Origin: Candidatus Micrarchaeota archaeon
Lineage (GTDB): Archaea; Micrarchaeota; Micrarchaeia; CABMEP01
Reading direction: 5' to 3'
DNA length: 52,253 nucleotides
NCBI GenBank assembly: GCA_026413625.1
Contig: JAOAKO010000004.1
Location: 1 to 52,253, forward strand
In this document: piece after piece, positions 1,048 through 36,562 of the stretch
How the letters are laid out: each line of letters opens with the position of its first letter
Numbering within the stretch: position 1 is the stretch's first letter
Notes under the pieces: model-generated
Told to the model about the DNA's origin: nothing
The model's database searches: none
Seen by the model: only the letters and a program-made list of their open reading frames with translations
Program-made: the position numbers and the translations under genes

Positions 1048-1172
1048 CGCTGGGGGCGAGATTCGAACTCGCGCAGGCCTTTTGGGCCTAACAGCTTTCC
1101 GCTTTTCTCTTTAAACTCTTTTTAAAAGAGCTTATTAGCAGGCTGCCGCCATAGCCACTAGGCGACCCCAGC
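1048..1172 (-). tRNA. tRNA-Ser(GCU) with a 39-nt intron at position 37/38
   Basis: Hand-folded on the minus strand: acceptor GCTGGGG/CCCCAGC, D arm GCC..GGC, anticodon stem GCAGC/GCTGT, loop CTGCTAA (anticodon GCT), long variable arm TAGGCCCAAAAGGCCTG, T arm GCGAG-TTCGAAT-CTCGC, discriminator G. No encoded CCA. Confidence 0.85.
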
Positions 1173-1236: not shown

Positions 1237-2298
1237 ATGAAATCTAAAAATGACAAAGTGGATTTTAAAGAGTGTTATGTCTACGAAAAGAGGCCAAATA
1301 ATACTGTAAGATGCCACACATGTTCGAGAAGATGCCTTATAGGAGAAGGACACACTGGATTTTGTCTTGTCAGAAAAAACATTAAGGGAAAACTTTACGC
1401 ATTAAATTATTCTAAGATTGCGACAATGAATATAGATCCAATAGGCAAAAAGCCGCTTGCTCACTTTCATCCAAATTCAAACGTTCTTTCAATTGCGACA
1501 ATGGGCTGCAATTTCAGATGTCAGTATTGCTGCAATTGGATGATAAGTCAACCTGAAAAAATGGAAGGGGAAGACACCCCTCCAGAAAAAATAATCAAGA
1601 TCGCAGAGGAATCGATGGCAGACGGGATCTCATACACTTATACAGAACCAACAATATTTTTTGAGACCTGCTACGATGTAGGAAAACTAGCAAAAGAGAA
1701 GGGCATGTTTAACACATGGGTTACAAATGGATATTTTACAAAGGAGACAATAGATAAAGGATATGGATATATAGATGCGATGACCGTGGATTTTAAGGCA
1801 TCCGGAAATTCTCAGTTTTATAAGAAGTTTGTTTCGATAAACGATGTTGAGCCGATATATGAGAATTTGAAATACATAAAGAAGAAAGGGATATATTTTG
1901 AAATTACCGATTTGATTGTGCCTAAAGTCGGAGACAATCTAGATGAAGTGAGGGCGCTTGCGCAATGGATAAGAGAAAATTTAGGGAAAGACATAACATT
2001 TCATTTGCTTAGGTTTTATCCTTCATATAAGATGATGGATTATCCAGATACACCAATTGAAACGCTTGAGAAAGCGTACAAAATAGCAAGCGAATATCTG
2101 GATTATGTTCTTTTAGGCAATGTTCCTGGGCATCCGGGTGAAAACACCTACTGTCCGAATTGCCATTCTCTTGTGATAGGAAGATACGGATTTTTAGTCA
2201 TGAAATGGATGCTTGACAAAGATAATAAATGCACAAACTGCGGATATAAAATTCCAATTGTTGGTAAATTGAAATATCCGTTGTCTTCTTTCGGATAG
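1237..2298 (+). CDS. amrS: AmmeMemoRadiSam system radical SAM enzyme
   Basis: Radical-SAM cluster motif CNFRCQYCCNW, an N-terminal Cys-rich stretch (CHTCSRRC...C) and a C-terminal CPNC...CTNC zinc-ribbon-like pair. Directly followed by AMMECR1 and Memo genes. Confidence 0.88.
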   Translation: MKSKNDKVDFKECYVYEKRPNNTVRCHTCSRRCLIGEGHTGFCLVRKNIKGKLYALNYSKIATMNIDPIGKKPLAHFHPNSNVLSIATMGCNFRCQYCCNWMISQPEKMEGEDTPPEKIIKIAEESMADGISYTYTEPTIFFETCYDVGKLAKEKGMFNTWVTNGYFTKETIDKGYGYIDAMTVDFKASGNSQFYKKFVSINDVEPIYENLKYIKKKGIYFEITDLIVPKVGDNLDEVRALAQWIRENLGKDITFHLLRFYPSYKMMDYPDTPIETLEKAYKIASEYLDYVLLGNVPGHPGENTYCPNCHSLVIGRYGFLVMKWMLDKDNKCTNCGYKIPIVGKLKYPLSSFG

Positions 2299-2308
2299 CG
2301 GTGATAGC

Positions 2309-2923
2309 ATGTTTGAATATTCATTAAAGGATGGCGAGATTCTGGTGGAGATCGCCCATAAGGCAATAAAAGAATATGTGCTTCATGGAGAGATAATTGA
2401 CATTAAAAGAGAATTTCCAGCTCTGCCTCAGCATCTTTTGGAAAAGAGAGGGGCATTTGTAACTCTAACAATTAATGATGAACTGAGGGGTTGCATAGGC
2501 ATTCCTCTTCCAATTCAACCATTGGTCGAGGCAGTCCGGGATATGGCGATAAGCGCCGCAACCGAAGACTATAGATTCATTCCGGTAAGCGAAAGCGAAG
2601 TCGATGAAATTCAAATCGAGATAAGCATTCTAACTCTTCCAAGGGAATTAAAATTAGAAAACAAGGAAGAAGCACCTAGAAAAATTAAAGTCGGGAGAGA
2701 CGGGTTGATAATTGAGTCGGATTGGCAAAGGGGACTGCTGCTGCCGCAAGTAGCTGTAGAAGAAAATTGGAATGAAGAGGAGTTTTTAGATCATGCATGT
2801 ATAAAGGCAGGTTTACATGAGGGGTGCTGGAAAAAAAAGGAAACAAAAATTTTAACATTCCAAGCAATAATATTTTCAGAAGATAAAAAGGGAAAAGTTA
2901 AGATGATATTACCTGAAGAGTGA
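2309..2923 (+). CDS. amrA: AMMECR1-domain protein
   Basis: Hallmark motifs RGAFVTL and LRGCIG. SD-like 'ggtga' lies 4 nt before the ATG and the gene starts 10 nt after the amrS stop. Confidence 0.9.
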   Translation: MFEYSLKDGEILVEIAHKAIKEYVLHGEIIDIKREFPALPQHLLEKRGAFVTLTINDELRGCIGIPLPIQPLVEAVRDMAISAATEDYRFIPVSESEVDEIQIEISILTLPRELKLENKEEAPRKIKVGRDGLIIESDWQRGLLLPQVAVEENWNEEEFLDHACIKAGLHEGCWKKKETKILTFQAIIFSEDKKGKVKMILPEE

Positions 2924-2927
2924 TCTT

Positions 2928-3776
2928 ATGAATCTTAGAAAAGCGGCTGTTGCAGGTTCATTTTATCCATCTTCAAAAAAGGAAGTAGAGGATATTATTG
3001 GGAGATTATTTTCATCTCCATCGGTCTCAGGTCTAGAGCCAGCCGAGGGCATGATCGGGTTCGTGTCTCCACATGCAGGTTACATTTATTCCGGCAAAAC
3101 TGCTGCGTATGGATATTCGAGAATAAAAAAGATTGGTAAGGATTCAACGTTTGTTATTCTAGGACCAAATCACTATGGCTTCGGTGCAGAGGTTTCAATC
3201 TATCCTAAAGGAGAATGGGAAACTCCGCTTGGAAGGGCGGTTATAGATGAGGACTTTATAAATGAATTATGCAAGGTATGCAATGGAGACATACTGATGG
3301 ATGCAAGCGCGCATCTTTATGAGCACTCCATTGAAGTTCAACTACCATTTCTTCAGTATTTGTTTGGAAAGAATTTCAAATTTGTTCCCATATGCATGCT
3401 TAATCAAAGCATAAGCATTGCGAAGGAGATATCAGAAATTCTTTATGCAACATATCTAAAAATGCATAAGAAGGGTGAAAAAGTATTTTTTATATCATCA
3501 AGCGATTTTAGTCATTATGTCCCTAAGAAAAAAGCAGAACAAGACGACTCTTTCGCAATAGAGAAAATAAAATCATTGGATGTAAAATCATTTTATGAAA
3601 CAATTGGAAAAAGGCAAATTTCCATTTGCGGATACGGTCCTATCTCTACATTAATGTTCATTTCAAAGAAGTTGGAAGTGAGAGAAATTAATCTCTTGAA
3701 CTACTCTACAAGTGCAGACGCTACCATGGATGAGAATGCGGTAGTTGGATATGCGTCTATTGAATTTTTGAAATAA
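2928..3776 (+). CDS. amrB: Memo-family protein
   Basis: AGSFYP, SPHAGYIYSG, GPNHYG, EHSIEVQLPFLQ, SSSDFSHY and ICGYGP match the conserved Memo metal-site and core motifs. Starts 4 nt after amrA. Confidence 0.9.
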   Translation: MNLRKAAVAGSFYPSSKKEVEDIIGRLFSSPSVSGLEPAEGMIGFVSPHAGYIYSGKTAAYGYSRIKKIGKDSTFVILGPNHYGFGAEVSIYPKGEWETPLGRAVIDEDFINELCKVCNGDILMDASAHLYEHSIEVQLPFLQYLFGKNFKFVPICMLNQSISIAKEISEILYATYLKMHKKGEKVFFISSSDFSHYVPKKKAEQDDSFAIEKIKSLDVKSFYETIGKRQISICGYGPISTLMFISKKLEVREINLLNYSTSADATMDENAVVGYASIEFLK

Positions 3777-7247: not shown

Positions 7248-7344
7248 GCCCCCGTAGTATAACCTGGATAGTACGCGAGCTTGCGGACATCTCGTTTCAT
7301 TTGGCAAAAAGCTTGTAATGCGGGTTCGAATCCCGTCGGGGGCG
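7248..7344 (+). tRNA. tRNA-Arg(GCG) with an intron of about 23 nt at 37/38
   Basis: Acceptor GCCCCCG/CGGGGGC, D arm GTAT..GTAC, anticodon stem CGAGC/GCTTG, loop TTGCGGA (anticodon GCG), T arm GCGGG-TTCGAAT-CCCGT, discriminator G. Confidence 0.8.
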
Positions 7345-15118: not shown

Positions 15119-15931
15119 ATGAGAGCCCCCATTGCCGCAGGCACATTATATCCTAGCAATAAATCAGAATTAAAAAACATATACAAAGAGATCTCAAATC
15201 AAAAAACCGAAAGTTTCAATTCAATATCCGCGCTTTATTTAGCAAACGGAAGTTTTAATGAGTTTAAAGAATTATACTTTAATGCGTACGCTTATCTTTT
15301 AAATATACCTGAAGAGACGACCTTTATCTTTATTTCAAACAACAAGTCAAAAAAAGGAAAGCCTGTCGCAATATCGAATGAGGATTGGTTAACTCCTTTA
15401 GGCAAAGTTTCATACGACAGGGAGCTCGGCGAAGAAATCAAGAAGCATTCTTCATTTGCTGAATTTGACAATTCCGCCCACTGCTTTGAGAGCTCAATAG
15501 AACTGCATCTGCCATTCGTGCAATCAATAGTCTCTAACCCAAAACTGGTCGCCATTACAATTTCTATTGTTGATGATTCGATTGTAAGGGATCTTGTTAA
15601 TGCCATAGAATCATCTATATCTCTGTTAAACCGAAACGCGGTGATCATTGGCGTTTCCGAACTTTTTCATTGCGAAAATCTAGAAGCTGCAAACTTAAAA
15701 CTTACTTATTTTTTAAATTACTTGGAATCATTCGATCCGCAGCAAAACATTGACCCGATATTCAAATTACTCATACAAGAGAGCTGTGCGACGAATCCAG
15801 TTGTTTTTTTGATACCTTTTGTATATTCTATAAAAAACGGATTCAGACCTAAAATCCTATCAAAAAAAATCAGTAAGACAGGAGTTAAGGAGGAAACTGA
15901 TGTATTTTTGTCAGTCGCTTATACCAAATAG
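15119..15931 (+). CDS. divergent Memo-like protein (metal-site motifs partly lost)
   Basis: N-terminal APIAAGTLYPSNKSEL (compare AGSFYP), AHCFESSIELHLPFVQ (compare EHSIEVQLPFLQ) and SELFHCEN (compare SDFSHY). The SPHAGY and GPNH motifs are replaced by ALYLANGSF and FISNNKS. Confidence 0.55.
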   Translation: MRAPIAAGTLYPSNKSELKNIYKEISNQKTESFNSISALYLANGSFNEFKELYFNAYAYLLNIPEETTFIFISNNKSKKGKPVAISNEDWLTPLGKVSYDRELGEEIKKHSSFAEFDNSAHCFESSIELHLPFVQSIVSNPKLVAITISIVDDSIVRDLVNAIESSISLLNRNAVIIGVSELFHCENLEAANLKLTYFLNYLESFDPQQNIDPIFKLLIQESCATNPVVFLIPFVYSIKNGFRPKILSKKISKTGVKEETDVFLSVAYTK

Positions 15932-15944
15932 TTATGGTGATTAA

Positions 15945-16976
15945 ATGTCAATAGAAGCCAGGAAGCACACTCATATATCAGTTGCCATTGAAAATTCGGT
16001 TTCATTTGAAACTATATCCGCCGGTTTTGAAGATGTTTTAGTTTATCATGATTCGATTCCGGATTTGAACTTATCAGATATAAAAACAGATTTGAAATTC
16101 TTAAAGAAAGACATATCCGCTCCAATTATGATAGATTCGATAACTGGCGGATTCACAGGCGCTGAGAAAATAAACAAAAAACTAGCAGGTGCGGCAGAAA
16201 AGGAGAATATACCTTTTTCCCTGGGCTCTCAAAGGGCGATGATTGAAAAACCAGCCCTGTCTTACACTTATAAAGTGAGAGACGTGGCTCCGAGCATACC
16301 TATTGTAGGAAACATAGGGATTGCGAATCTGTCTAATGAATTGATAGGGAAGTTGGAGTCGGCATTGAAAGAAATAGATGCGGATGCATTGGCAATACAT
16401 CTAAATCCAATTCAAGAGGCAATTCAAAAGGAAGGAGATACTTACTTTAAGCACAAATTTGACCTTATAGATGAGGTCTGCGAAAAAATCGATGTGCCAG
16501 TCATAATAAAAGAAGTTGGACACGGGATGTCCATAGAAACTTTGAAAAAATTAGAAAAAACAAAAGCGCAGTTCATAAATATAGCAGGCGCAGGCGGAAC
16601 ATCTTGGGCTAAAATTGAAAGATTGCGAAATAATAGTTTGAGCTCAGCTTTTGATGAGGATGGCATTCCAACGGTCGTCTCTCTTGTTTTTGCAAAGAAA
16701 TATACTAGCAAAAAATTAATAGCCTCGGGAGGCGTAAGAAATGGCATTGAAATCGCAAAATCAATCTGCCTTGGTGCAGAATTGGGTGCTGCCGCCATTC
16801 CGTTTTTGAGGGCATATTATTCAAACAGTGTGACATCACTTATCAGGCAGTGGAAGTCTGAGCTTAAGAATTTCATGTTTACAAGAAACATAAACGACAT
16901 AAAGTCCCTGAGAAAACTTAAGCCTAAATTAGTTGGAAATACAAAAGAGCTGGTTGATGCACATATTAGATTATGA
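15945..16976 (+). CDS. fni: type 2 isopentenyl-diphosphate delta-isomerase (FMN-dependent IDI-2)
   Basis: RK..HI start, TIM-barrel FMN motifs (IKEVGHGMS, NIAGAGGTSWAKIE, ASGGVRNG). SD 'ggtgat' lies 4 nt upstream. Confidence 0.88.
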   Translation: MSIEARKHTHISVAIENSVSFETISAGFEDVLVYHDSIPDLNLSDIKTDLKFLKKDISAPIMIDSITGGFTGAEKINKKLAGAAEKENIPFSLGSQRAMIEKPALSYTYKVRDVAPSIPIVGNIGIANLSNELIGKLESALKEIDADALAIHLNPIQEAIQKEGDTYFKHKFDLIDEVCEKIDVPVIIKEVGHGMSIETLKKLEKTKAQFINIAGAGGTSWAKIERLRNNSLSSAFDEDGIPTVVSLVFAKKYTSKKLIASGGVRNGIEIAKSICLGAELGAAAIPFLRAYYSNSVTSLIRQWKSELKNFMFTRNINDIKSLRKLKPKLVGNTKELVDAHIRL

Positions 16977-29116: not shown

Positions 29117-29959
29117 ATGCCTGAAAAGGAAAAAGAAGGTAAAAAGAGAATAGAGAGAGGAGAAGAAACAAAACAGAACAAACCATCACTCTGGAGCAGA
29201 ATAAAGAAGCCGTTGCTTACAGGAGTAATGGCAGCCGGGCTTTTAATTGCTCCAATGAAGAAGGCGGAAGGAGTAGGTTTCAAAGATATAAGAGGTCCGC
29301 CAATTTATATGGAGAGCGTAATCGAGAAGGATAAAGATTTAAGAACAGGATGGAAATTAATAAGAAAGGTATACGACGATCTAACAGGAAAAGAGATGGT
29401 AGACGATAATGTTGCCAAGTCATATCTGAAGTATGCAATAAACCATTATAAGAAAGTTTATGAAAAAACAGGTAAAGTTGGGGCTTTTTATTTATCTGCT
29501 TACGGAGAATATTTGAATTCACAATACGATCCAACTTTAGAGGGAACCGAAAAGATCTGCCTCGAAGTAGTAAAAGAAATGGATAAAATATTGGAAAAAA
29601 ACCCAAATGATTTTCATGCGTTAGATCTAAAGATATTTACTTATTTTAATCTCGCAAAGATGTATTACGATGCCCATAATTTAGATCCTCTTTATGTTAG
29701 AGAAAGGTGGATTGATTATGGAAAATTAGAAGAGGGTATCTATAAGAAAAAAGTTCGGGAATACGCCGATAAATTTTTCGAAATGTACAAAAAATTAGAT
29801 TTCAGCAAGATTGGGTTCAAATCATTCGATTTGGAAAAAGTCTATTCCGAGGAGGAAATCGCAAATGCGCTGAGGGATTATAAGTCTGGGCTTGCAGATT
29901 GCAATAAACTTATTTTGGAGATGTTGGATAAACTTAAGATGTTGGATAACCTTAAATAG
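29117..29959 (+). CDS. membrane-anchored hypothetical protein with a helical (TPR-like?) ectodomain
   Basis: Lys/Glu-rich N-terminus, one TM (LLTGVMAAGLLIAPM), then a helical Tyr/Lys-rich domain. No family recognised. Confidence 0.45.
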   Translation: MPEKEKEGKKRIERGEETKQNKPSLWSRIKKPLLTGVMAAGLLIAPMKKAEGVGFKDIRGPPIYMESVIEKDKDLRTGWKLIRKVYDDLTGKEMVDDNVAKSYLKYAINHYKKVYEKTGKVGAFYLSAYGEYLNSQYDPTLEGTEKICLEVVKEMDKILEKNPNDFHALDLKIFTYFNLAKMYYDAHNLDPLYVRERWIDYGKLEEGIYKKKVREYADKFFEMYKKLDFSKIGFKSFDLEKVYSEEEIANALRDYKSGLADCNKLILEMLDKLKMLDNLK

Positions 29960-29979: not shown

Positions 29980-31827
29980 ATGTTGATACTGTTTCACTTA
30001 AATTCAAAGGAACCATATAATAATCAAAAATTTTCAATGCCAAATCTCTCTTCTTTTTCTAATCAAATTCCAGTTATTGTAAACACCACATCCGATGAAA
30101 TCCAGCATGTATTAGAAATGCTTAAGAAGGAAAATATCAAGATAGAGCTGGATGACATCTTTGAGAGGTTTATTGAAAGCAGGGAATTGGGAGAAGAGAA
30201 AGAAAGCGAAGAAGAGGAGGAGAAAGAGGAAGAGAAGTTAAAAGAAAAGGAATGGGGGGTGGAGGAAGAGGTTAAGGAGAAAGTTAAGGAGGCTGAAGAG
30301 AGGATAATCAAGATATTAGAAGAGTCATCCGAAAGGATAGCAGAGTTAATAGAGCAGGATATGCTGTCTACTGAAAATATTAAGGAAAATATAGAGATTT
30401 TATCCTCAGTATCGGAGTACATTGGGCTTAAAGAGGCTGTAGAAGAGATAGAGGAGAAGCTGAAAGAAGAAAAAGTAGAAGAGGCGATGGAAATAATAAG
30501 AGAGCAAAATGAAAGAATAAGGGAAGAGGCAGATAACTTAAAGGAAGCAATAGATAAAATTGAGGATCTGGAAAAGGAAAAGGCAGGAATAGGGAAGATA
30601 TCTGAGGAATTGAGCAAGCTTACTGAAAAGTCGCACCCATTGGATGAAGAGATAGAAAATATATCCGATGCCCTTAAGCACTTAAAAGAAGGCGGAGTGC
30701 TTTCAAAAGAAATAGCTGATTCGCTACTACAAGAGCTGAAGGCAAAACAGAAAATTCATGAAAATATAATCAAAAAGATAAGGGAAGCAGTAACAAGCAT
30801 AGAAAAAACTCCCGAGGAAAAGAGAGAGGCCGAGATAAAAGGCTTAATCAAAGAAATACGTCATGGAATAACTGAAATAGAGGCGTTGTCAAGAAGAATA
30901 GAGAGAATAACCTCAGAGGTAGTAAAAAACATAGAAAAGGAAATAGACAATTTTGTTCCAAAATTCTTCAGAAAGGAAGATCTTCACGAGGTAATCAAAA
31001 AAATATGGATAAATTCCACTATAGATTTCATAAGAGACAAAATAATGCGGGCGAGCATGAGAAAGGAGAGCGAAGAGAGAACTGAGAAAAGAGCGAAAAT
31101 CGAAGCCGAGGAAAAGTATTGGAGCGAAAAGCTCGCTTCTTTAATTCCAGAGTTAAATTCTCCGCTCCATATATTTGACAGAAAGCTGAAGTCCATATTA
31201 AAGCCAGCCGAATATAAAGAGGCTGTTTTACACTCCCACAGGGCATTGATTTCCTATCTGGACAAGTTCTCATACGAATTGGAGGAGATATACGTAAACT
31301 CGTTTGTCTTCGGCAAGAAGCAGCTTAGAGTGGAGCAGATTGTTGAGAATTTGGAAAAGAAGGCAGAAGCATTGAGTATATCTCAAAAAGACATTGCAAA
31401 GATCGAAAACCTGCTTGAAAAAAATGATTTGAAAGCACTTTCAGAATATATCGATGAATTAAAATTCAGCAAGATGCGTTCGAGAATATTAGTCAAAAAT
31501 AGAAGGAGGCATAGTAACAGTACAAGCAGAATGCTGATTAAGGATCTCTTGCAGCAGCTCTATGCCGCTAACTATCCTATATATTTAGCAAAGTCTCTCT
31601 CGAGTGCAGTGAAAGACGGGAAAAAAGCCGGCAAGAAAAATTCAGTCTCTGACCGCAGAAAAATAGAAATTTTAGTTAAGAATATACATAGCCAAATAAT
31701 GGAGATCGAAAAGGCAAAGTCACATGCCGCTTCCGACTCATTGAACAGATCGCATATTCATAATCTTGCCAAATGCCTTTCAAAAAGTTATATCTGTTTA
31801 GGATGCTGCGATAAACTTTCTTCCTAA
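29980..31827 (+). CDS. Glu/Lys-rich coiled-coil protein with a Cys-rich C-terminus, function unknown
   Basis: 615 aa with long EEKxKE-type heptads. The C-terminus is ...NLAKCLSKSYICLGCCDKLSS. The alternative start at 30037 (MPNLSS) cannot be excluded. Confidence 0.55.
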   Translation: MLILFHLNSKEPYNNQKFSMPNLSSFSNQIPVIVNTTSDEIQHVLEMLKKENIKIELDDIFERFIESRELGEEKESEEEEEKEEEKLKEKEWGVEEEVKEKVKEAEERIIKILEESSERIAELIEQDMLSTENIKENIEILSSVSEYIGLKEAVEEIEEKLKEEKVEEAMEIIREQNERIREEADNLKEAIDKIEDLEKEKAGIGKISEELSKLTEKSHPLDEEIENISDALKHLKEGGVLSKEIADSLLQELKAKQKIHENIIKKIREAVTSIEKTPEEKREAEIKGLIKEIRHGITEIEALSRRIERITSEVVKNIEKEIDNFVPKFFRKEDLHEVIKKIWINSTIDFIRDKIMRASMRKESEERTEKRAKIEAEEKYWSEKLASLIPELNSPLHIFDRKLKSILKPAEYKEAVLHSHRALISYLDKFSYELEEIYVNSFVFGKKQLRVEQIVENLEKKAEALSISQKDIAKIENLLEKNDLKALSEYIDELKFSKMRSRILVKNRRRHSNSTSRMLIKDLLQQLYAANYPIYLAKSLSSAVKDGKKAGKKNSVSDRRKIEILVKNIHSQIMEIEKAKSHAASDSLNRSHIHNLAKCLSKSYICLGCCDKLSS

Positions 31828-31858
31828 ATAGTGAAGAGAAATCTTTATATTTCTCATC

Positions 31859-33106
31859 ATGTTCTCTTATATTGCTGATATCATGGAATCTAAACTGTCT
31901 TCTTATGCCATAATCGGGGCTGGAGGTAAAGGGGAAAGAATGGGCTGCAACAAGCAGCTCCTGGAGCTAAAGGGAAAGCCGATAGTGATCAGAACATTGG
32001 AGGCATTCGACCAGCATCCTTTAGTTGACGGAATAATCCTTGTAAGGCCAGCAGAGCTTGAAAATGAATTCAGAAATCTAATCAAAAAATACGAAATCAA
32101 AAAGATTGCGGACATAGCAGATGCTGGCCCTGAGCGTCAGTATTCCATGTACAACGGCCTTCAGAAAGTCAAGAACTGCAGTGTTGTCTTGTTTCACAAT
32201 GGGGCAAATCCGCTTGTAACAGAAAGAGAAATAACCGAGTGCATAAAAGAGGCCTACAACCATGGGGCCGCAGTAGTTGCGTCTCCAGTCAAAGACACAA
32301 TAAAGAGAGTCAAAGATATGCTTGTAAAAGAAACGCTAAGGAGGTCTGAACTTTGGGCGATGCAGACGCCCCAAGCCATAAGATATGAAATCGCAGTAAA
32401 GGCATACGAACATGTGATAAAAGGAAATATTCAGTGTACGGACGATGTGCAAGCCGTAGAGCTCTTTGATAGTTCAGTCACAATTAAGATAGTCCAGGCG
32501 TCTCCGCAAAATATCAAACTCACCACCCCTGCGGACGTTTTGATTGCAGAGAGGTTTCTTGACCCAAGCGAGTCTAGGTCTTATTGCGAAACAGTATTTG
32601 GAATAGGGGAAGATTCGCATGAGTTTATGAAAGAAGCTGAAAAAATAGCAGAAGACAATGAAAAACAAATAAACAAGTGCCTTGTGCTTGGTGGAGTAGT
32701 AATCTCAAGCGAAATGGCATTCAAAGCAAACAGCGATGGAGATGCAGTTCTGCATGCGATCTCTAGGGCAATTCTTTCCGCAATAAACGGCCCATCCATA
32801 GATTTCTTTGCGGACGATCTCGCAAAGAAAGGGCAGATAGACAGCAGAATATATCTCAAATCTATTTTGGCATACTCAAAGGAAAAGGGCTTTGTTCCAA
32901 ACGAGGCAAGAATTATAATTGAGGCAGGAAAACCAAAATTAACATACCACTTGGAAAAGATAAAGGAAAACATAGCTTTTCTCCTTGGGATAGATAAAGA
33001 AAAGGTAGGTTTGGCAGTTCATTCAGGGGAGAAACTATCTCTTTTTGGTCATGGGAAGGGAGTAAGGGCATTCGCCTTTGTCTCAATGAAGAAGATAGGT
33101 AATTAA
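31859..33106 (+). CDS. ispDF: bifunctional IspD-like cytidylyltransferase / IspF-like cyclodiphosphate synthase fusion (divergent)
   Basis: N-terminal half: IIGAGGKGERMG..KQLL.L.GKPI, GPERQYS..NGL, WAMQTPQAI, TDD, NIKLTTPADVLIAE (IspD pattern). C-terminal half: GIGEDSHEF, SDGDAVLHAI, HSGEKLSLFGHGKGV (IspF pattern). The likely leaderless start is the ATG at 31883, with TATA 'ctttatatttc' at 31842-31852. Confidence 0.78.
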   Translation: MFSYIADIMESKLSSYAIIGAGGKGERMGCNKQLLELKGKPIVIRTLEAFDQHPLVDGIILVRPAELENEFRNLIKKYEIKKIADIADAGPERQYSMYNGLQKVKNCSVVLFHNGANPLVTEREITECIKEAYNHGAAVVASPVKDTIKRVKDMLVKETLRRSELWAMQTPQAIRYEIAVKAYEHVIKGNIQCTDDVQAVELFDSSVTIKIVQASPQNIKLTTPADVLIAERFLDPSESRSYCETVFGIGEDSHEFMKEAEKIAEDNEKQINKCLVLGGVVISSEMAFKANSDGDAVLHAISRAILSAINGPSIDFFADDLAKKGQIDSRIYLKSILAYSKEKGFVPNEARIIIEAGKPKLTYHLEKIKENIAFLLGIDKEKVGLAVHSGEKLSLFGHGKGVRAFAFVSMKKIGN

Positions 33107-33184: not shown

Positions 33185-36100
33185 ATGGCGACCATTCAGG
33201 AGATTACCTTACGAAATTTCAAGTCATTTAAGGCAGTGAAGATTCCTTTATCCAAAGGTTTCAATGCCATAATAGGTCCAAATGGAAGCGGGAAAAGCAA
33301 TATCTGCGATGCAATCCGTTTTCTATTCGGTGAAACAAGCCTTTCAGCATTAAGGGCGAGGTCTGTGAATGATCTAATCTACGGCGGCGGGGAAAGAGCA
33401 ACTATTTCTATGAAATTGACGGACATTTCAAATAAGGACATTCTAAATGAACAGAGCGGAAACGGGACGATAGAAATAGTAAGAAAATTAAAGAAGGACG
33501 GAGGAACAGCATACTGGCTTAATGGAAAGAGAACCACAAAGAGCGTTGTGATGGATTTCCTCGCTTCTGAGGGTTTGGAAGTGAGCTCTCACAATGTGAT
33601 CGCCCAGGGAGAAGTTGATAAGATAGTGAGATTCACGGCTAAGCAAAGGAGAGAGGTAATAGATGAGATTGCGGGAGTCGCAGAGTACGAGGAGAAGAAA
33701 AAGGAAGCGCTAAGCGAGCTTAGCAAGGTCGACCAAAGGCTTAACGAAGCAGCAGTGGTAATGAATGAGCGAGAAGGAATCCTTCAAGAACTTGAAAAGG
33801 AAAAGGATGCGGCACTTAAATATATGGCCTTGAAGGACGAGCAAAGGCGACTGAAAGGAACGATTATACTTAATCAGTACTTGAGGCATGAGAAGGAATT
33901 TGAGGGGTTGGTGAAAAAGCTTACGGAAATTGAAAAGCAGTTTGCTGAGATCGAGCAGCAAATGCAGGAATTCCAAAAGAAACTTCAGATGCTGGATGCG
34001 AATAAAAACGAAATAGCGAATAAAATCGCATCAAAGGACCAAAGAAACATTTATGCAGAGGTAGAGGATTTAAGAAACAAAAAAATGCTTAACGAATCTT
34101 TAATAATAGAGAAAGATACGTCTTTACAGAGATTAGATGCTGAAATTGCAAAGCTAACCCAGGAAATGGGCGACATCGATTCAAAGCTTTCAACGTTTAC
34201 AGGTTCGAAGAGGGCAGCCGCAACGAGGGCGGTCGAGCTGAAGAAGCTTATCGAAAGCTTGAATGAGCAGAAAAAGAAGGTTGCGAAAGAATGGGAGGAA
34301 AAGAGAAAGAATTTCGGCCTTTTCGATACCAAATTTGACGAGCTAAGGAAGAGGGAAATAAAGCTCAAGGAGGAAATAGCGAAATTAAACGCAAAGCTTG
34401 ATGTTTCTTCCGGAAACAAAGATGAGAAGAAGTTAGTTAATGAGTTAAGAGAAATTAAGTCTGCGATAGAAAGGAACAACGCAGAGCTCGAGAGGCTCTT
34501 CAAGAAAGAAAAGGATCTAAATTCTCTGATAAGGGAGCTTGATTCTAAGATACTTGAACTTAAGGAGGATCTCGCGACAGCAAGAGGTTCCGGAAACGCG
34601 ATTCCTCAATCAATCTCATTCATTTTAAGCTTAAAAGATGAGATACCTGGAATATATGGAACTGTTGCAGAGCTTTATGATGTCGACAAGAAGTTCTCGA
34701 TAGCAACAGAATCTGCGGCAGGACAGAGGCTTTTCCATATCGTTGTCCAAGACATGGAGACTGCGACAAAGATAATCAAGAGAATGAAGCAAAGCAATGT
34801 TGGAAGAGCAACTTTCATACCTCTGGATGTTAAAACCCCTGAGAAGGGATCTGAACAAAAGGGAACATACGGATCCATACTCAACCTGATAAAATTCGAC
34901 AAGAAATTTGCAAACGTATTTCTCTATGTATTCGGAAACACTCATGTTGTAAACTCTGTAGATGATTTCAAGTCCCATCCAGGACTAAGAATGGTGACTC
35001 TTGACGGAGACCTTGCCGAGACTTCAGGAGTCGTCTCTGGTGGAACTTCTATAAAGAGGTCTTTAAGGGACTCTTTGAAGTCAAATCAGATTGAGAAGGA
35101 GCTTAGCGAACTTAAGGCAACTAGAGAGGGCCACATTTCACAGCTATATAATCTTAATGAGCAGATGGCAATACTTAGAAAGCAAATAGCAAAGGATGAA
35201 ATCAGAAAGAAAGAATTGGAATTAGAGATGGGGGCGGTTTCCAATGAAGACCTTTCAGAGGTAAGGAGGCTGCTCTCCGAAAAAGAGCTCGATCTTCAAG
35301 ACCTTGAAAGAGAAATGCTAAATTTAGAGGGAGAGAAGGCAAGGATAAGAATTGCAATAGAGCAGGGAGAGGGAGAAAAGGAGATAGCAAGACTAGACAA
35401 TGAGATAATGCAGTATTCAACCGAGCTTTCCGCTCTCGAAGAAAAGCTAAAGAGCCAGGATTCTATAATTCTCGAGGAGAGGCTGTCCGCAATCAAATCT
35501 TCTCTGGAGAAGTTAACTTCTGAAAGGGAGGAAATCAAGAAAGCAATAAGTGATCTGAATTCCAAGTTGAAACAAATAACCAAGCAGCTCGAGGCCAAGG
35601 AAGAAAAAATAAGGGACGCAAGCAAGGAATTGGAAAAGCTTTATGCGGAGAGCAAGGCGATTCAAGACGAAATGGACTTGATTAACCAGGAGAGAGGAAA
35701 ATTAATAAGGCGACAGGAAAGGCTTAAGGAGGACAAGATAAGGTTCACTGTTTCAAAAGAAACAATACAAACAAGACTTGCCGACTTGAAAATTGAGGCA
35801 GACCAGTATAAAGACATTCAACCTTTAGAGATGAAGAAAGAAGAGTTGGAAAAGAGGCTTGGAGAGGTCGAATTGGAAATAAACGGAATGGGTTCTGTCA
35901 ACCTTAAGGCTCCAGAGACATACAAGGAGAAATATGAGGAATTTAAGGTAATAAAAGAGAAAGTCGACATACTTTCAAATGAAAAGAACTCAATACTAAG
36001 CATGATAGAGGAGATAGAGAAAAGGAAGAAAGAGATATTTATGTCAACATTTATAGAAGTGAACAAGCATTTCCAAAAGATGGCGCTTTCTCTATTTGGA

Positions 36101-36562
36101 AACGAGGCTACGCTGGCATTGGAGAATGAGGCCAATCCGTTCGAAGGCGGTCTGCACATAATAATGAAAGTAGGGAAGAGGCAGCGCCATATAGAGGGCA
36201 TGTCCGGAGGGGAGAAGTCACTTTTGACTATTGCGTTTGTATTCGCAATTCATATGTATAAACCATCAAAATTCTACATTCTTGACGAGGTCGAAGCTGC
36301 GCTTGACAAGGAAAACAGCAAGAGGTTTGCGCAGCTTGTAAGCTCATTGTCAAAAGATACCCAGTTTATAGTAGTTTCGCATAACGATGTGGTTATAACC
36401 TCGGCCGATGCCGCATTAGGTGTTGCAAAGACGAGACTGGGTTCAAAGATACTCAGCATCAAGCTTTTGCCTGATTCAAGTTCCGATTCGCCTAAGATTG
36501 TATCCGAAGAAATAGAACCTATGGACGAAGAGGAGCGAGATGAAAAAGATGACGAATACTGA
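33185..36562 (+). CDS. smc: SMC chromosome segregation ATPase
   Basis: Walker A GPNGSGKSN, long coiled coils flanking a hinge (about aa 500-620), signature MSGGEKSL and Walker B FYILDEVEAALD. 1125 aa with an acidic tail. Confidence 0.93.
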   Translation: MATIQEITLRNFKSFKAVKIPLSKGFNAIIGPNGSGKSNICDAIRFLFGETSLSALRARSVNDLIYGGGERATISMKLTDISNKDILNEQSGNGTIEIVRKLKKDGGTAYWLNGKRTTKSVVMDFLASEGLEVSSHNVIAQGEVDKIVRFTAKQRREVIDEIAGVAEYEEKKKEALSELSKVDQRLNEAAVVMNEREGILQELEKEKDAALKYMALKDEQRRLKGTIILNQYLRHEKEFEGLVKKLTEIEKQFAEIEQQMQEFQKKLQMLDANKNEIANKIASKDQRNIYAEVEDLRNKKMLNESLIIEKDTSLQRLDAEIAKLTQEMGDIDSKLSTFTGSKRAAATRAVELKKLIESLNEQKKKVAKEWEEKRKNFGLFDTKFDELRKREIKLKEEIAKLNAKLDVSSGNKDEKKLVNELREIKSAIERNNAELERLFKKEKDLNSLIRELDSKILELKEDLATARGSGNAIPQSISFILSLKDEIPGIYGTVAELYDVDKKFSIATESAAGQRLFHIVVQDMETATKIIKRMKQSNVGRATFIPLDVKTPEKGSEQKGTYGSILNLIKFDKKFANVFLYVFGNTHVVNSVDDFKSHPGLRMVTLDGDLAETSGVVSGGTSIKRSLRDSLKSNQIEKELSELKATREGHISQLYNLNEQMAILRKQIAKDEIRKKELELEMGAVSNEDLSEVRRLLSEKELDLQDLEREMLNLEGEKARIRIAIEQGEGEKEIARLDNEIMQYSTELSALEEKLKSQDSIILEERLSAIKSSLEKLTSEREEIKKAISDLNSKLKQITKQLEAKEEKIRDASKELEKLYAESKAIQDEMDLINQERGKLIRRQERLKEDKIRFTVSKETIQTRLADLKIEADQYKDIQPLEMKKEELEKRLGEVELEINGMGSVNLKAPETYKEKYEEFKVIKEKVDILSNEKNSILSMIEEIEKRKKEIFMSTFIEVNKHFQKMALSLFGNEATLALENEANPFEGGLHIIMKVGKRQRHIEGMSGGEKSLLTIAFVFAIHMYKPSKFYILDEVEAALDKENSKRFAQLVSSLSKDTQFIVVSHNDVVITSADAALGVAKTRLGSKILSIKLLPDSSSDSPKIVSEEIEPMDEEERDEKDDEY

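What the first reader, a model, noticed from the sequence alone, without database searches (positions are those of the whole stretch)
31859..33106. Divergent IspD-IspF fusion in an archaeal contig that also encodes mevalonate-type IDI-2
The 415-aa ORF has an IspD-like N-terminal half and an IspF-like C-terminal half, both recognisable by motif. IspD and IspF belong to the MEP pathway, which is bacterial and plastidial; archaea make IPP through mevalonate routes. This window also carries the type-2 IPP isomerase (15945-16976) typical of that route. Several motifs are atypical. The usual IspD 'HDxxRP' reads HNGANP (about 32195-32212). The IspF half has an insertion of about 17 aa after the GIGxDxH metal motif, and the 'GDIGxxFP' segment is not recognisable (PSIDFFADD). 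Asp/His ligands (GEDSHEF, LHAI) are retained. The gene has the same AT-rich composition and leaderless TATA arrangement as its neighbours and is flanked by archaeal genes. A natively integrated horizontal acquisition, perhaps re-purposed to make another CDP-activated or cyclic-diphosphate compound, seems more likely than a binning artefact.
Basis: partly seen in the sequence, partly recalled or inferred. Interest (0 to 1): 0.7.

Follow-up and report, generated by a model that had tools for sequence, protein, structure and literature searches.

The report
Bacterial-type IspDF enzyme in a Micrarchaeota genome
The gene is a real, intact fusion of two bacterial-type isoprenoid-pathway enzymes (IspD and IspF) in a tiny hot-spring archaeon, but this fusion and its odd motifs are already documented in such archaea, so it is a known oddity, not a new one.

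Summary
The ORF at 31859-33106 encodes IspD (Pfam 5e-50) fused to IspF (4e-30). It lies in an archaeal contig with SRP RNA, Cdc6, PCNA and SMC, plus a type-2 IPP isomerase. The likely start is ATG 31883 (407 aa).

The "atypical" motifs are not special to this gene. HNGxNP, ANSDGD and a degenerate GDIG segment occur in about 110 of 112 related fusions. This DPANN/CPR-type family sits beside other MEP genes in 99 of 100 loci of at least 8 kb. One example is a complete dxs-ispG-dxr-ispDF-ispE-ispH operon in a Nanoarchaeota (Woesearchaeales-type) contig.

The nearest relatives (77-78% identity) are MAGs of the Micrarchaeota order Zaosheniarchaeales (GTDB o__CABMEP01). PCNA-IspDF-SMC synteny is kept down to 50% identity, so the gene is native and not a chimeric join.

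A 2025 paper states that this order has a complete MEP pathway. MEP genes and fused ispD/F in DPANN archaea have been reported since 2018.

One point remains open. In all 15 Micrarchaeota-clade loci of at least 8 kb the fusion stands alone, and I could not confirm dxr, ispE, ispG or ispH in the same genomes.

The best reading is a canonical bifunctional MEP enzyme. Re-purposing is unsupported but not excluded.

The parts
31883..33106 (+). Most likely CDS of the bifunctional IspD/IspF protein (407 aa plus stop)
   Evidence: The database gene call P0001 is 407 aa. N-termini of 13 clade homologues align to this ATG. Translation checked.
31859..31882 (+). Eight in-frame codons upstream (MFSYIADI) that give the 415-aa maximal ORF; probably not translated
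   Evidence: No homologue has this extension. The TATA-like box lies only 7 nt upstream of it. This is an inference.
31844..31851 (.). TATA-like box TTTATATT, about 35 nt upstream of ATG 31883
   Evidence: Read directly from the sequence. A promoter role is inferred from typical archaeal spacing and was not tested.
31907..32560 (+). IspD (MEP cytidylyltransferase) domain
   Evidence: Pfam PF01128, E 5.1e-50. TIGR00453 scores 186.9, above the 181.3 cut-off. B. subtilis IspD 5ddt matches at 1.3e-52. Foldseek against 5hs2 gives TM 0.93 and rmsd 1.6 Å. The equivalents of R20, K27, T140, R157, T165, T189 and K213 are conserved.
32195..32212 (+). HNGANP motif, replacing the canonical HDxxRP (E. coli D106 and R109 both become N)
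   Evidence: N/N is found in 110 of 112 family fusions, including the operon-encoded P0019.
32597..33088 (+). IspF (MEcPP synthase, YgbB) domain
   Evidence: Pfam PF02542, E 4.2e-30. TIGR00151 scores 114.8 against a cut-off of 116.45.
32606..32620 (+). GEDSH: equivalents of the Zn ligands Asp8 and His10. The third ligand, His42, is at 32753-32755.
   Evidence: Invariant in all 112 fusions and in alignments A1 and A2. Coordinates checked.
32627..32680 (+). Clade-specific loop or helix insertion (MKEAEKIAEDNEKQINKC) after the metal motif
   Evidence: The AF2 model shows a helix at residues 251-261. The segment varies in length across the clade, from roughly 10 to more than 40 residues, and is not conserved in sequence. 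It is short in the Woesearchaeal fusions and in E. coli.
33020..33031 (+). HSGE: equivalents of E. coli T132-E135 (second-metal Glu135 retained; T132 becomes H, T133 becomes S)
   Evidence: His at position 132 occurs in 14 of 14 Micrarchaeota-clade sequences, against Thr in 96 of 98 others.
15945..16976 (+). Type-2 IPP isomerase (IDI-2). It acts downstream of either the mevalonate or the MEP pathway.
   Evidence: TIGR02151 scores 346.4, above the 281.3 cut-off. Pfam FMN_dh.

Best explanation
The gene encodes a functional bifunctional IspDF of the DPANN/CPR type, inherited vertically within the Micrarchaeota order Zaosheniarchaeales (GTDB o__CABMEP01) after one old transfer from bacteria.

The N-terminal domain would transfer CMP from CTP onto 2-C-methyl-D-erythritol 4-phosphate, giving CDP-ME. 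After phosphorylation by a separate IspE kinase, the C-terminal Zn-dependent domain would cyclise CDP-ME2P to MEcPP and release CMP. The product feeds IspG and IspH to give IPP and DMAPP, which IDI-2 interconverts.

Shown here: domain identity, conservation of the catalytic and metal residues, family membership, native location and lineage. Inferred: the substrates, and the presence of dxs, dxr, ispE, ispG and ispH elsewhere in the genome. The second point rests on a published statement for the order.
For: **Domain identity.**
- HMM and structural identification are strong.
- The AF2 model has pLDDT 93.1. Its best Foldseek hits are H. pylori and C. jejuni IspDF and B. subtilis IspD.

**Residue conservation.**
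- In IspD, R20, K27, K213, T140, R157, T165 and T189 are conserved.
- In IspF, D8, H10, H42, S35, D38, D63 and E135 are conserved. They hold across a clade that has diverged to 50% identity.

**Family context.**
- The substitutions that look odd are family-wide.
- The family lies in MEP clusters in 99 of 100 other loci of at least 8 kb. ispE is adjacent in 61 of 62 large loci and dxr in 57 of 62.
- One complete operon was verified at NCBIfam equivalog cut-offs.
- Both halves place the window in the same monophyletic clade inside this family.

**Lineage.**
- The closest genomes (77-78% identity) are listed as Zaosheniarchaeales in Dataset S1 of PMC12892359.
- That paper says this order has a complete bacterial MEP pathway.

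**Logic.** IspF needs a 2-phosphorylated CDP-alcohol. Purifying selection on both halves therefore implies a kinase step in these genomes. This is an inference.
Against: **No linked MEP genes.** No other MEP gene lies within 31 kb upstream or 19 kb downstream in the window, or within about 10 kb either side in any Micrarchaeota-clade locus. The count is 0 of 15 loci of at least 8 kb, over 302 kb in total. Profile HMMs run without filters found nothing either.

**Pathway not verified.** I could not confirm dxr, ispE, ispG or ispH in the same MAGs. The paper's per-genome table is not held.

**Genome biology.** These genomes are about 0.75 Mb and eroding. They are also reported to have an IPK-type mevalonate route, so a full second pathway would be redundant.

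**Scores and substitutions.**
- The IspF half falls just under the TIGR00151 cut-off.
- It carries clade-specific changes: T132H, D46R, G58D and the insertion.
- No member of this family has been assayed, as far as the papers read here show.
Confidence: 0.75

Rival explanations
1. Orphan, re-purposed enzyme. Zaosheniarchaeales kept only IspDF from an acquired MEP cluster. They now use it to activate another polyol phosphate with CTP, to form another cyclic diphosphate, or both.
For: - The fusion is solitary in all 15 Micrarchaeota-clade loci of at least 8 kb, against 1 of 100 in other lineages.
- No MEP remnants lie nearby.
- The lineage is undergoing gene loss and is reported to have an IPK-type mevalonate route.
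- The IspF half has clade-specific changes: T132H, D46R, G58D and a variable insertion.
- In one subclade the IspD half is degenerating (H105V, P110I) beside a truncated IspD-like duplicate.
Against: - PMC12892359 reports a complete MEP pathway for this order.
- Dispersed MEP genes are normal in many bacteria. In E. coli, for example, the ispD-ispF pair is flanked by ftsB and truD, not by other MEP genes.
- Most of the atypical residues are shared with operon-encoded relatives.
- Position 132 also varies among solved canonical IspFs. The alignments show Lys there in the Arabidopsis and Burkholderia proteins.
- IspF chemistry still needs a kinase, so a two-enzyme orphan is mechanistically awkward.
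- The ribitol-5-P cytidylyltransferase model scores below its cut-off (115.6 against 166).
Confidence: 0.17
2. Decaying relic. The gene is a leftover of an old transfer, no longer functional and on its way to loss.
For: The lineage shows reductive evolution and low coding density. A truncated IspD-like duplicate sits next to the fusion in one subclade.
Against: - The reading frame is intact and full-length in every assembly seen.
- 100 columns are invariant across 14 clade sequences down to 50% identity, including all catalytic and metal ligands.
- Position between PCNA and SMC is conserved.
- Codon usage is typical.
Confidence: 0.04
3. Assembly or binning artefact. A bacterial fragment was joined to an archaeal contig.
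For: None found beyond the bacterial ancestry of the gene.
Against: The same neighbours appear on both sides in independent assemblies from four data sources. The gene lies 31 kb and 19 kb from the contig ends. Its codon usage matches the window.
Confidence: 0.01

Closest known systems
IspDF of Zaosheniarchaeales MAGs (e.g. NCBI MEM3455684.1; contigs JAVZPM010000002.1, JAVZXS010000002.1, JAVZGM010000004.1; 'Candidatus Micrarchaeia archaeon')
   Same: They share 77-78% identity over the full length. They have the same HNGANP, ANSDGD, HSGE and S-(I/L)-D-F-F-A-D motifs and the same insertion site. The PCNA-IspDF-SMC neighbourhood is the same.
   Different: The window has two extra unknown ORFs between PCNA and IspDF, and an intein-free SMC. 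The window's GC is 38%, against about 33% for those MAGs, so it is probably a different genus or species.
Fused ispD/F of Woesearchaeales (Nanoarchaeota) inside the bacterial-type MEP operon (PMC8421398, PMC8204110; here L009/P0019)
   Same: The domain order is the same. The family signatures D106N, R109N and H34N are shared, as is the degenerate GDIG segment. Both halves fall in the same family in NJ trees. Both are horizontally acquired genes in DPANN archaea.
   Different: Identity is only 43%. The Woesearchaeal gene is flanked by dxr and ispE, and usually by dxs, ispG and ispH as well. The window's gene is solitary. The window's clade has T132H, D46R, G58D and a longer loop after the metal motif.
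Campylobacter jejuni and Helicobacter pylori IspDF (PDB 1w55/1w57, 8xhu/8xkf; NCBIfam NF006899)
   Same: Both are bifunctional IspD-IspF polypeptides. These are the top full-length Foldseek hits (1e-34 to 5e-32) and sequence matches.
   Different: Identity is 23-28%. The NF006899 score is 217 against a cut-off of 417. The epsilonproteobacterial enzymes keep the canonical H34 and GDIG motif. The window's protein belongs to a separate fusion lineage.
Bacillus subtilis IspD (PDB 5ddt/5hs2)
   Same: This is the best solved relative of the N-terminal half: E 1.3e-52, TM 0.93, rmsd 1.6 Å, 42-43% identity.
   Different: It is monofunctional, and it has the canonical HDGARP motif.

Membership tests
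IspD, MEP cytidylyltransferase (PF01128 / TIGR00453) | Profile score above the curated cut-offs | tested here: met
   PF01128 scores 170.7 against 27. TIGR00453 scores 186.9 against 181.3.
IspD, MEP cytidylyltransferase (PF01128 / TIGR00453) | Catalytic P-loop Arg/Lys and C-terminal Lys (E. coli R20, K27, K213) | tested here: met
   All are conserved in the window and in 112 of 112 fusions or nearly so. They are invariant in A2.
IspD, MEP cytidylyltransferase (PF01128 / TIGR00453) | Residues that contact MEP in E. coli IspD (D106, R109, T140, R157, T165, T189). The list is recalled from the structural literature. | tested here: inconclusive
   T140, R157, T165 and T189 are conserved. D106 and R109 are both Asn. 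The same holds in 110 of 112 family members, including the operon-encoded P0019.
IspD, MEP cytidylyltransferase (PF01128 / TIGR00453) | CTP + MEP gives CDP-ME activity | not testable with these tools
   Needs an enzyme assay.
IspF, MEcPP synthase (PF02542 / TIGR00151) | Profile score above the curated cut-offs | tested here: inconclusive
   PF02542 scores 105.6 against 26.7, which passes. The TIGR00151 equivalog scores 114.8 against 116.45, narrowly short. The operon-encoded P0019 scores 142.8.
IspF, MEcPP synthase (PF02542 / TIGR00151) | Zn ligands Asp8, His10 and His42, and Glu135 | tested here: met
   Invariant.
IspF, MEcPP synthase (PF02542 / TIGR00151) | Canonical nucleotide/substrate motifs H34-S-D-G-D and G-D56-I-G58 | tested here: not met
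   H34 is Asn and GDIG reads PSID. H34N and loss of D56 are family-wide. G58D is specific to the window's subclade.
Proteobacterial-type bifunctional IspDF (NF006899 / PRK09382) | Equivalog score of at least 417 | tested here: not met
   The score is 217.4. The domain order and fold do match.
DPANN/CPR-type IspDF family (defined here) | Signature residues HNGxNP and ANSDGD, with both halves nesting in the family | tested here: met
   Residue census and NJ trees of each half.
DPANN/CPR-type IspDF family (defined here) | Location inside a MEP gene cluster (dxr upstream, ispE downstream) | tested here: not met
   0 of 15 Micrarchaeota-clade loci, against 99 of 100 others.
Complete MEP pathway in the organism | dxs, dxr, ispE, ispG and ispH in the same genome | not testable with these tools
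   None is in the 52-kb window. PMC12892359 asserts completeness for the order, but its per-MAG table is not held.
Ribitol-5-phosphate cytidylyltransferase (TarI; NF001183) | Score of at least 166 | tested here: not met
   The score is 115.6.

The most novel reading that the evidence does not exclude
In Zaosheniarchaeales the IspDF fusion has been uncoupled from the MEP pathway and is kept under selection for another job. One possibility is making a CDP-activated polyol or a cyclic diphosphate in a host-dependent, thermophilic, genome-reduced archaeon. The published 'complete MEP pathway' would then be an order-level annotation artefact.
Probability: 0.13. Interest if true: 0.6.

Novelty: already known. 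Interest (0 to 1): 0.25.

Why it matters
Bacterial MEP genes in archaea bear on how DPANN symbionts obtain the isoprenoid precursors for their membranes, and on how freely core lipid pathways cross the domain boundary.

That story is already published for Woesearchaeota, and in 2025 for this Micrarchaeota order. The window adds one more member.

Two modest points remain worth attention:
- The whole DPANN/CPR IspDF family differs from every assayed IspD and IspF at substrate-contact positions (D106N, R109N, H34N, loss of GDIG), and it has never been characterised biochemically.
- In Zaosheniarchaeales alone the fusion is detached from all other MEP genes. A simple genome-wide check would show whether it is part of a dispersed pathway or an orphan.

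Tried and rejected
**Search for a Micrarchaeota IspG.**
- A database search with the Woesearchaeal IspG returned only Woesearchaeal proteins of at least 81% identity.
- An exhaustive representative search gave 150 representatives at 37-59% identity.
- Cluster look-ups of 20 of them showed no accession from the Micrarchaeia MAG series.
- Context look-ups of three of them (P0252, P0304, P0259) all showed bacterial neighbourhoods.
- The result is inconclusive. It is not evidence of absence.

**The paper's per-genome gene table.** Dataset S7 of PMC12892359 is not stored. KO numbers and gene names are absent from the stored text.

**Origin of the window's contig.** A look-up of the window's own protein found nothing on record.

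**Degraded MEP genes near IspDF.** I built profile HMMs from 43-121 DPANN/CPR sequences per gene and ran them without filters on all ORFs of at least 40 aa in 302 kb of clade sequence. Only noise came back (E at least 0.4).

**More contexts from metagenomes.** The JGI scan added six Micrarchaeota-clade loci: five short ones and L100, which duplicates L007. None has a MEP neighbour.

**Contig walking.** I considered walking along the 138-246 kb Zaosheniarchaeales contigs. I dropped it because the remaining look-ups would have exposed only about 15-20 kb of new sequence.

**Rejected readings.**
- Chimeric join, rejected on synteny.
- TarI-like ribitol-5-P enzyme, rejected because it scores below its cut-off.
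- Membership of the proteobacterial IspDF lineage, rejected because it scores below its cut-off.
Full report
**1. The observation**

The ORF 31859-33106 (+) is real. Its product matches Pfam IspD over residues 17-234 (E 5.1e-50) and Pfam YgbB/IspF over residues 247-410 (E 4.2e-30).

With NCBIfam, the ispD equivalog-domain model is passed (186.9 against 181.3). The ispF model is missed by under 2 bits (114.8 against 116.45). The proteobacterial bifunctional model NF006899 is far from met (217 against 417).

Against solved structures, the N-terminal half is closest to B. subtilis IspD (1.3e-52). The C-terminal half is closest to H. pylori IspDF and to many IspFs.

An AlphaFold model built on a 37-sequence alignment is confident (pLDDT 93.1). 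Its best Foldseek hits are H. pylori and C. jejuni IspDF over the full length. B. subtilis IspD matches the N-terminal domain with TM 0.93 and rmsd 1.6 Å.

Two corrections apply:
- The likely start is ATG 31883 (407 aa). Every homologue starts there, and a TATA-like TTTATATT box at 31844-31851 is too close to ATG 31859.
- The loop after the metal motif is 17-18 residues long. The net insertion is about 13 residues relative to E. coli and about 11 relative to Woesearchaeal relatives.

**2. The contig**

The window is archaeal throughout. It carries:
- an archaeal SRP RNA and intron-bearing tRNAs;
- SepF, GluRS, tRNase Z, PheRS alpha and beta, NFACT, Cdc6/Orc1, PCNA, SMC, Alba, AspRS, TldD/PmbA, an ATP-dependent DNA ligase, Tmk, NDK and dCTP deaminase.

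The gene at 15945-16976 is a type-2 IPP isomerase by the equivalog cut-off. No other MEP gene is in the window by Pfam, by tblastn or by profile HMM.

**3. Native, not chimeric**

The order PCNA-IspDF-SMC-DUF460-Alba-AspRS-TldD recurs around homologues of 50-78% identity. It appears in independent NCBI, ENA, JGI and Logan assemblies.

The gene's codon usage is among the most typical in the window (rank 9 of 47). Its GC is 1.3 SD above the gene mean.

**4. Which organism**

A scan of one genome per GTDB species gave these closest matches:
- MAGs DRTY-7_201601_bins_6, JZ-3_201705_bins_117, DRTY-6_201705_bins_89 and DRTY-7_201803_bins_59, at 77-78%;
- SulCav_AS07-7_42_18, at 63%;
- LFW-242_1, at 50%.

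Dataset S1 of PMC12892359 lists three of the four DRTY/JZ MAGs (JZ-3_201705_bins_117 was not found in the stored text). It places them in p__Micrarchaeota; o__CABMEP01; g__DTQF01, which the authors name Zaosheniarchaeales. LFW-242_1 is the namesake of o__CABMEP01.

These genomes are about 0.75 Mb and about 33% GC. They come from slightly acidic 60-80 °C springs, and the lineage is described as undergoing gene loss.

**5. The "atypical" motifs are family traits**

I aligned 112 full-length fusions recovered with E. coli IspD and IspF, taken from the MG1655 record.

In the IspD half:
- R20, K27, K213, T140, R157, T165 and T189 are conserved.
- D106 and R109 are both Asn in 110 of 112 sequences.

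In the IspF half:
- The Zn ligands D8, H10 and H42 are invariant, as are S35 and D38. D63 (110 of 112) and E135 (95 of 112; Asp or Asn in the rest) are largely conserved, and both are retained in all 14 Micrarchaeota-clade sequences.
- H34 is Asn in 110 of 112.
- D56 of the GDIG motif is lost family-wide.

The changes specific to Micrarchaeota are:
- T132H (14 of 14, against Thr in 96 of 98 others);
- D46R;
- G58D, in the window's subclade only;
- a loop of variable length and unconserved sequence after the metal motif. The model shows it as a helix.

Position 132 also varies among solved canonical IspFs (alignments).

NJ trees of each half give the same picture. A monophyletic Micrarchaeota clade sits inside one family, together with Woesearchaeota/Nanoarchaeota, Omnitrophota and Peregrinibacteria sequences. 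The fusion was therefore acquired as a unit.

**6. What the family does elsewhere**

In a 132-kb Nanoarchaeota contig (L009, 43% identity) the fusion lies in dxs-ispG-dxr-ispDF-ispE-ispH, flanked by archaeal ribosomal-protein genes. Five of the genes were scored against NCBIfam and pass the equivalog cut-offs. ispG is identified by its Pfam GcpE domains and its NCBI protein name.

Across 149 loci from other lineages, 99 of the 100 that hold at least 8 kb carry at least one more MEP gene beside the fusion. Among the 62 loci of at least 15 kb, ispE is adjacent in 61 and dxr in 57.

**7. What is different here**

In every Micrarchaeota-clade locus the fusion is alone. The count is 0 of 15 loci of at least 8 kb, over 302 kb in total. 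Unfiltered profile HMM searches found no degraded remnants.

This contrast is the one feature I did not find described in the papers read.

**8. Literature**

- MEP enzymes in DPANN were reported in 2018 (PMC6107057; Castelle and Banfield 2018, as cited in PMC8421398 and PMC8204110).
- A clade of 52 Woesearchaeota genomes with co-located MEP genes was reported in 2021 (PMC8204110).
- The fused ispD/F was described explicitly in Woesearchaeota subgroup J (PMC8421398).
[quoted passage not shown] It adds that most MEP genes, except dxs, were acquired horizontally. It also says Zaosheniarchaeales appear to make IPP from isopentenyl phosphate via IPK.
- NCBI already annotates the 77%-identical proteins as IspD or IspF.
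[quoted passage not shown] IDI-2 therefore does not mark a mevalonate-only organism.

**9. Interpretation**

The best-supported reading is a working bifunctional MEP-pathway enzyme (confidence 0.75). The grounds are:
- both catalytic centres are conserved over deep divergence;
- the odd residues are shared with operon-encoded relatives;
- the order is reported to have the whole pathway.

Solitary placement alone is weak evidence for re-purposing. In E. coli, for example, the ispD-ispF pair sits between ftsB and truD, not beside other MEP genes.

The re-purposed-orphan reading (about 0.17) is kept alive by four things:
- the complete loss of linkage;
- the erosion of these genomes;
- the reported parallel IPK route;
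- my inability to see the other genes.

My attempts to find them were limited by the tools and are inconclusive.

Pseudogenisation (about 0.04) and assembly artefact (about 0.01) are contradicted by conservation and synteny.

**10. Verdict**

The re-purposing suggestion is not supported.

The phenomenon is already known. The window adds a new member of the Zaosheniarchaeales clade. A single genome-wide HMM check on public assemblies would settle the open point.

Noticed in passing
window 29117-29959 and 29980-31827 (+): Two ORFs with no Pfam match sit between PCNA and IspDF only in this window. One is 280 aa with a hydrophobic N-terminal segment. The other is 615 aa, Glu/Lys-rich and looks coiled-coil. 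In all relatives PCNA is followed directly by IspDF, so this looks like a lineage-specific insertion.
   Followed up: partly
window 33185-36562; L002 7096-12108; L014 13743-18755: The window's SMC is 1125 aa and has no intein. The 77%-identity relatives have a 1670-aa SMC carrying an intein with a LAGLIDADG homing-endonuclease domain.
   Followed up: no
L007 1135-1869 and L008 9251-9985: In one subclade a 244-aa IspD-like ORF lies between PCNA and the fusion. It lacks the whole P-loop/K27 region and has K213R and T215A, so it is probably an inactive partial duplicate. In the same subclade the fusion's own IspD half is degenerating (H105V, P110I, KDT to KNT, MQTPQ to AETPQ).
   Followed up: partly
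window 1048-1172 (-) and 7248-7344 (+): A 125-nt tRNA match was found by Rfam but not by ARAGORN; it probably has a long intron. There is also a 97-nt tRNA-Pro(CGG). Both fit an archaeal origin.
   Followed up: no
window 1237-3776 and 15119-15931: A radical-SAM, AMMECR1 and Memo gene trio is present. A second, more divergent Memo-like gene lies immediately upstream of IDI-2.
   Followed up: no
L020, L029, L031, L040, L043 and others: GTDB representative records titled 'uncultured Methanosarcinales archaeon' (co-assembly MAGs) carry Woesearchaeal-type dxs-ispG-dxr-ispDF-ispE-ispH clusters at 60-85% identity to a Nanoarchaeota operon. The organism label looks wrong.
   Followed up: no
L023 (CAZPFO010000011.1): This is the only non-Micrarchaeota locus of at least 8 kb (1 of 100) where the fusion has no other MEP gene nearby. 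It may be a second case of uncoupling.
   Followed up: no
L093 and L175: The closest non-DPANN relatives of the Woesearchaeal IspG lie in bacterial uppS-cdsA-dxr-rseP-ispG contexts. L093 also carries CodY, which suggests Firmicutes. This fits the published Firmicutes affinity of Woesearchaeal dxr and ispG.
   Followed up: partly
L014 11269-13107 (-): A 613-aa ORF is inserted between IspDF and SMC in one Zaosheniarchaeales MAG. It is absent from the window and from L002.
   Followed up: no
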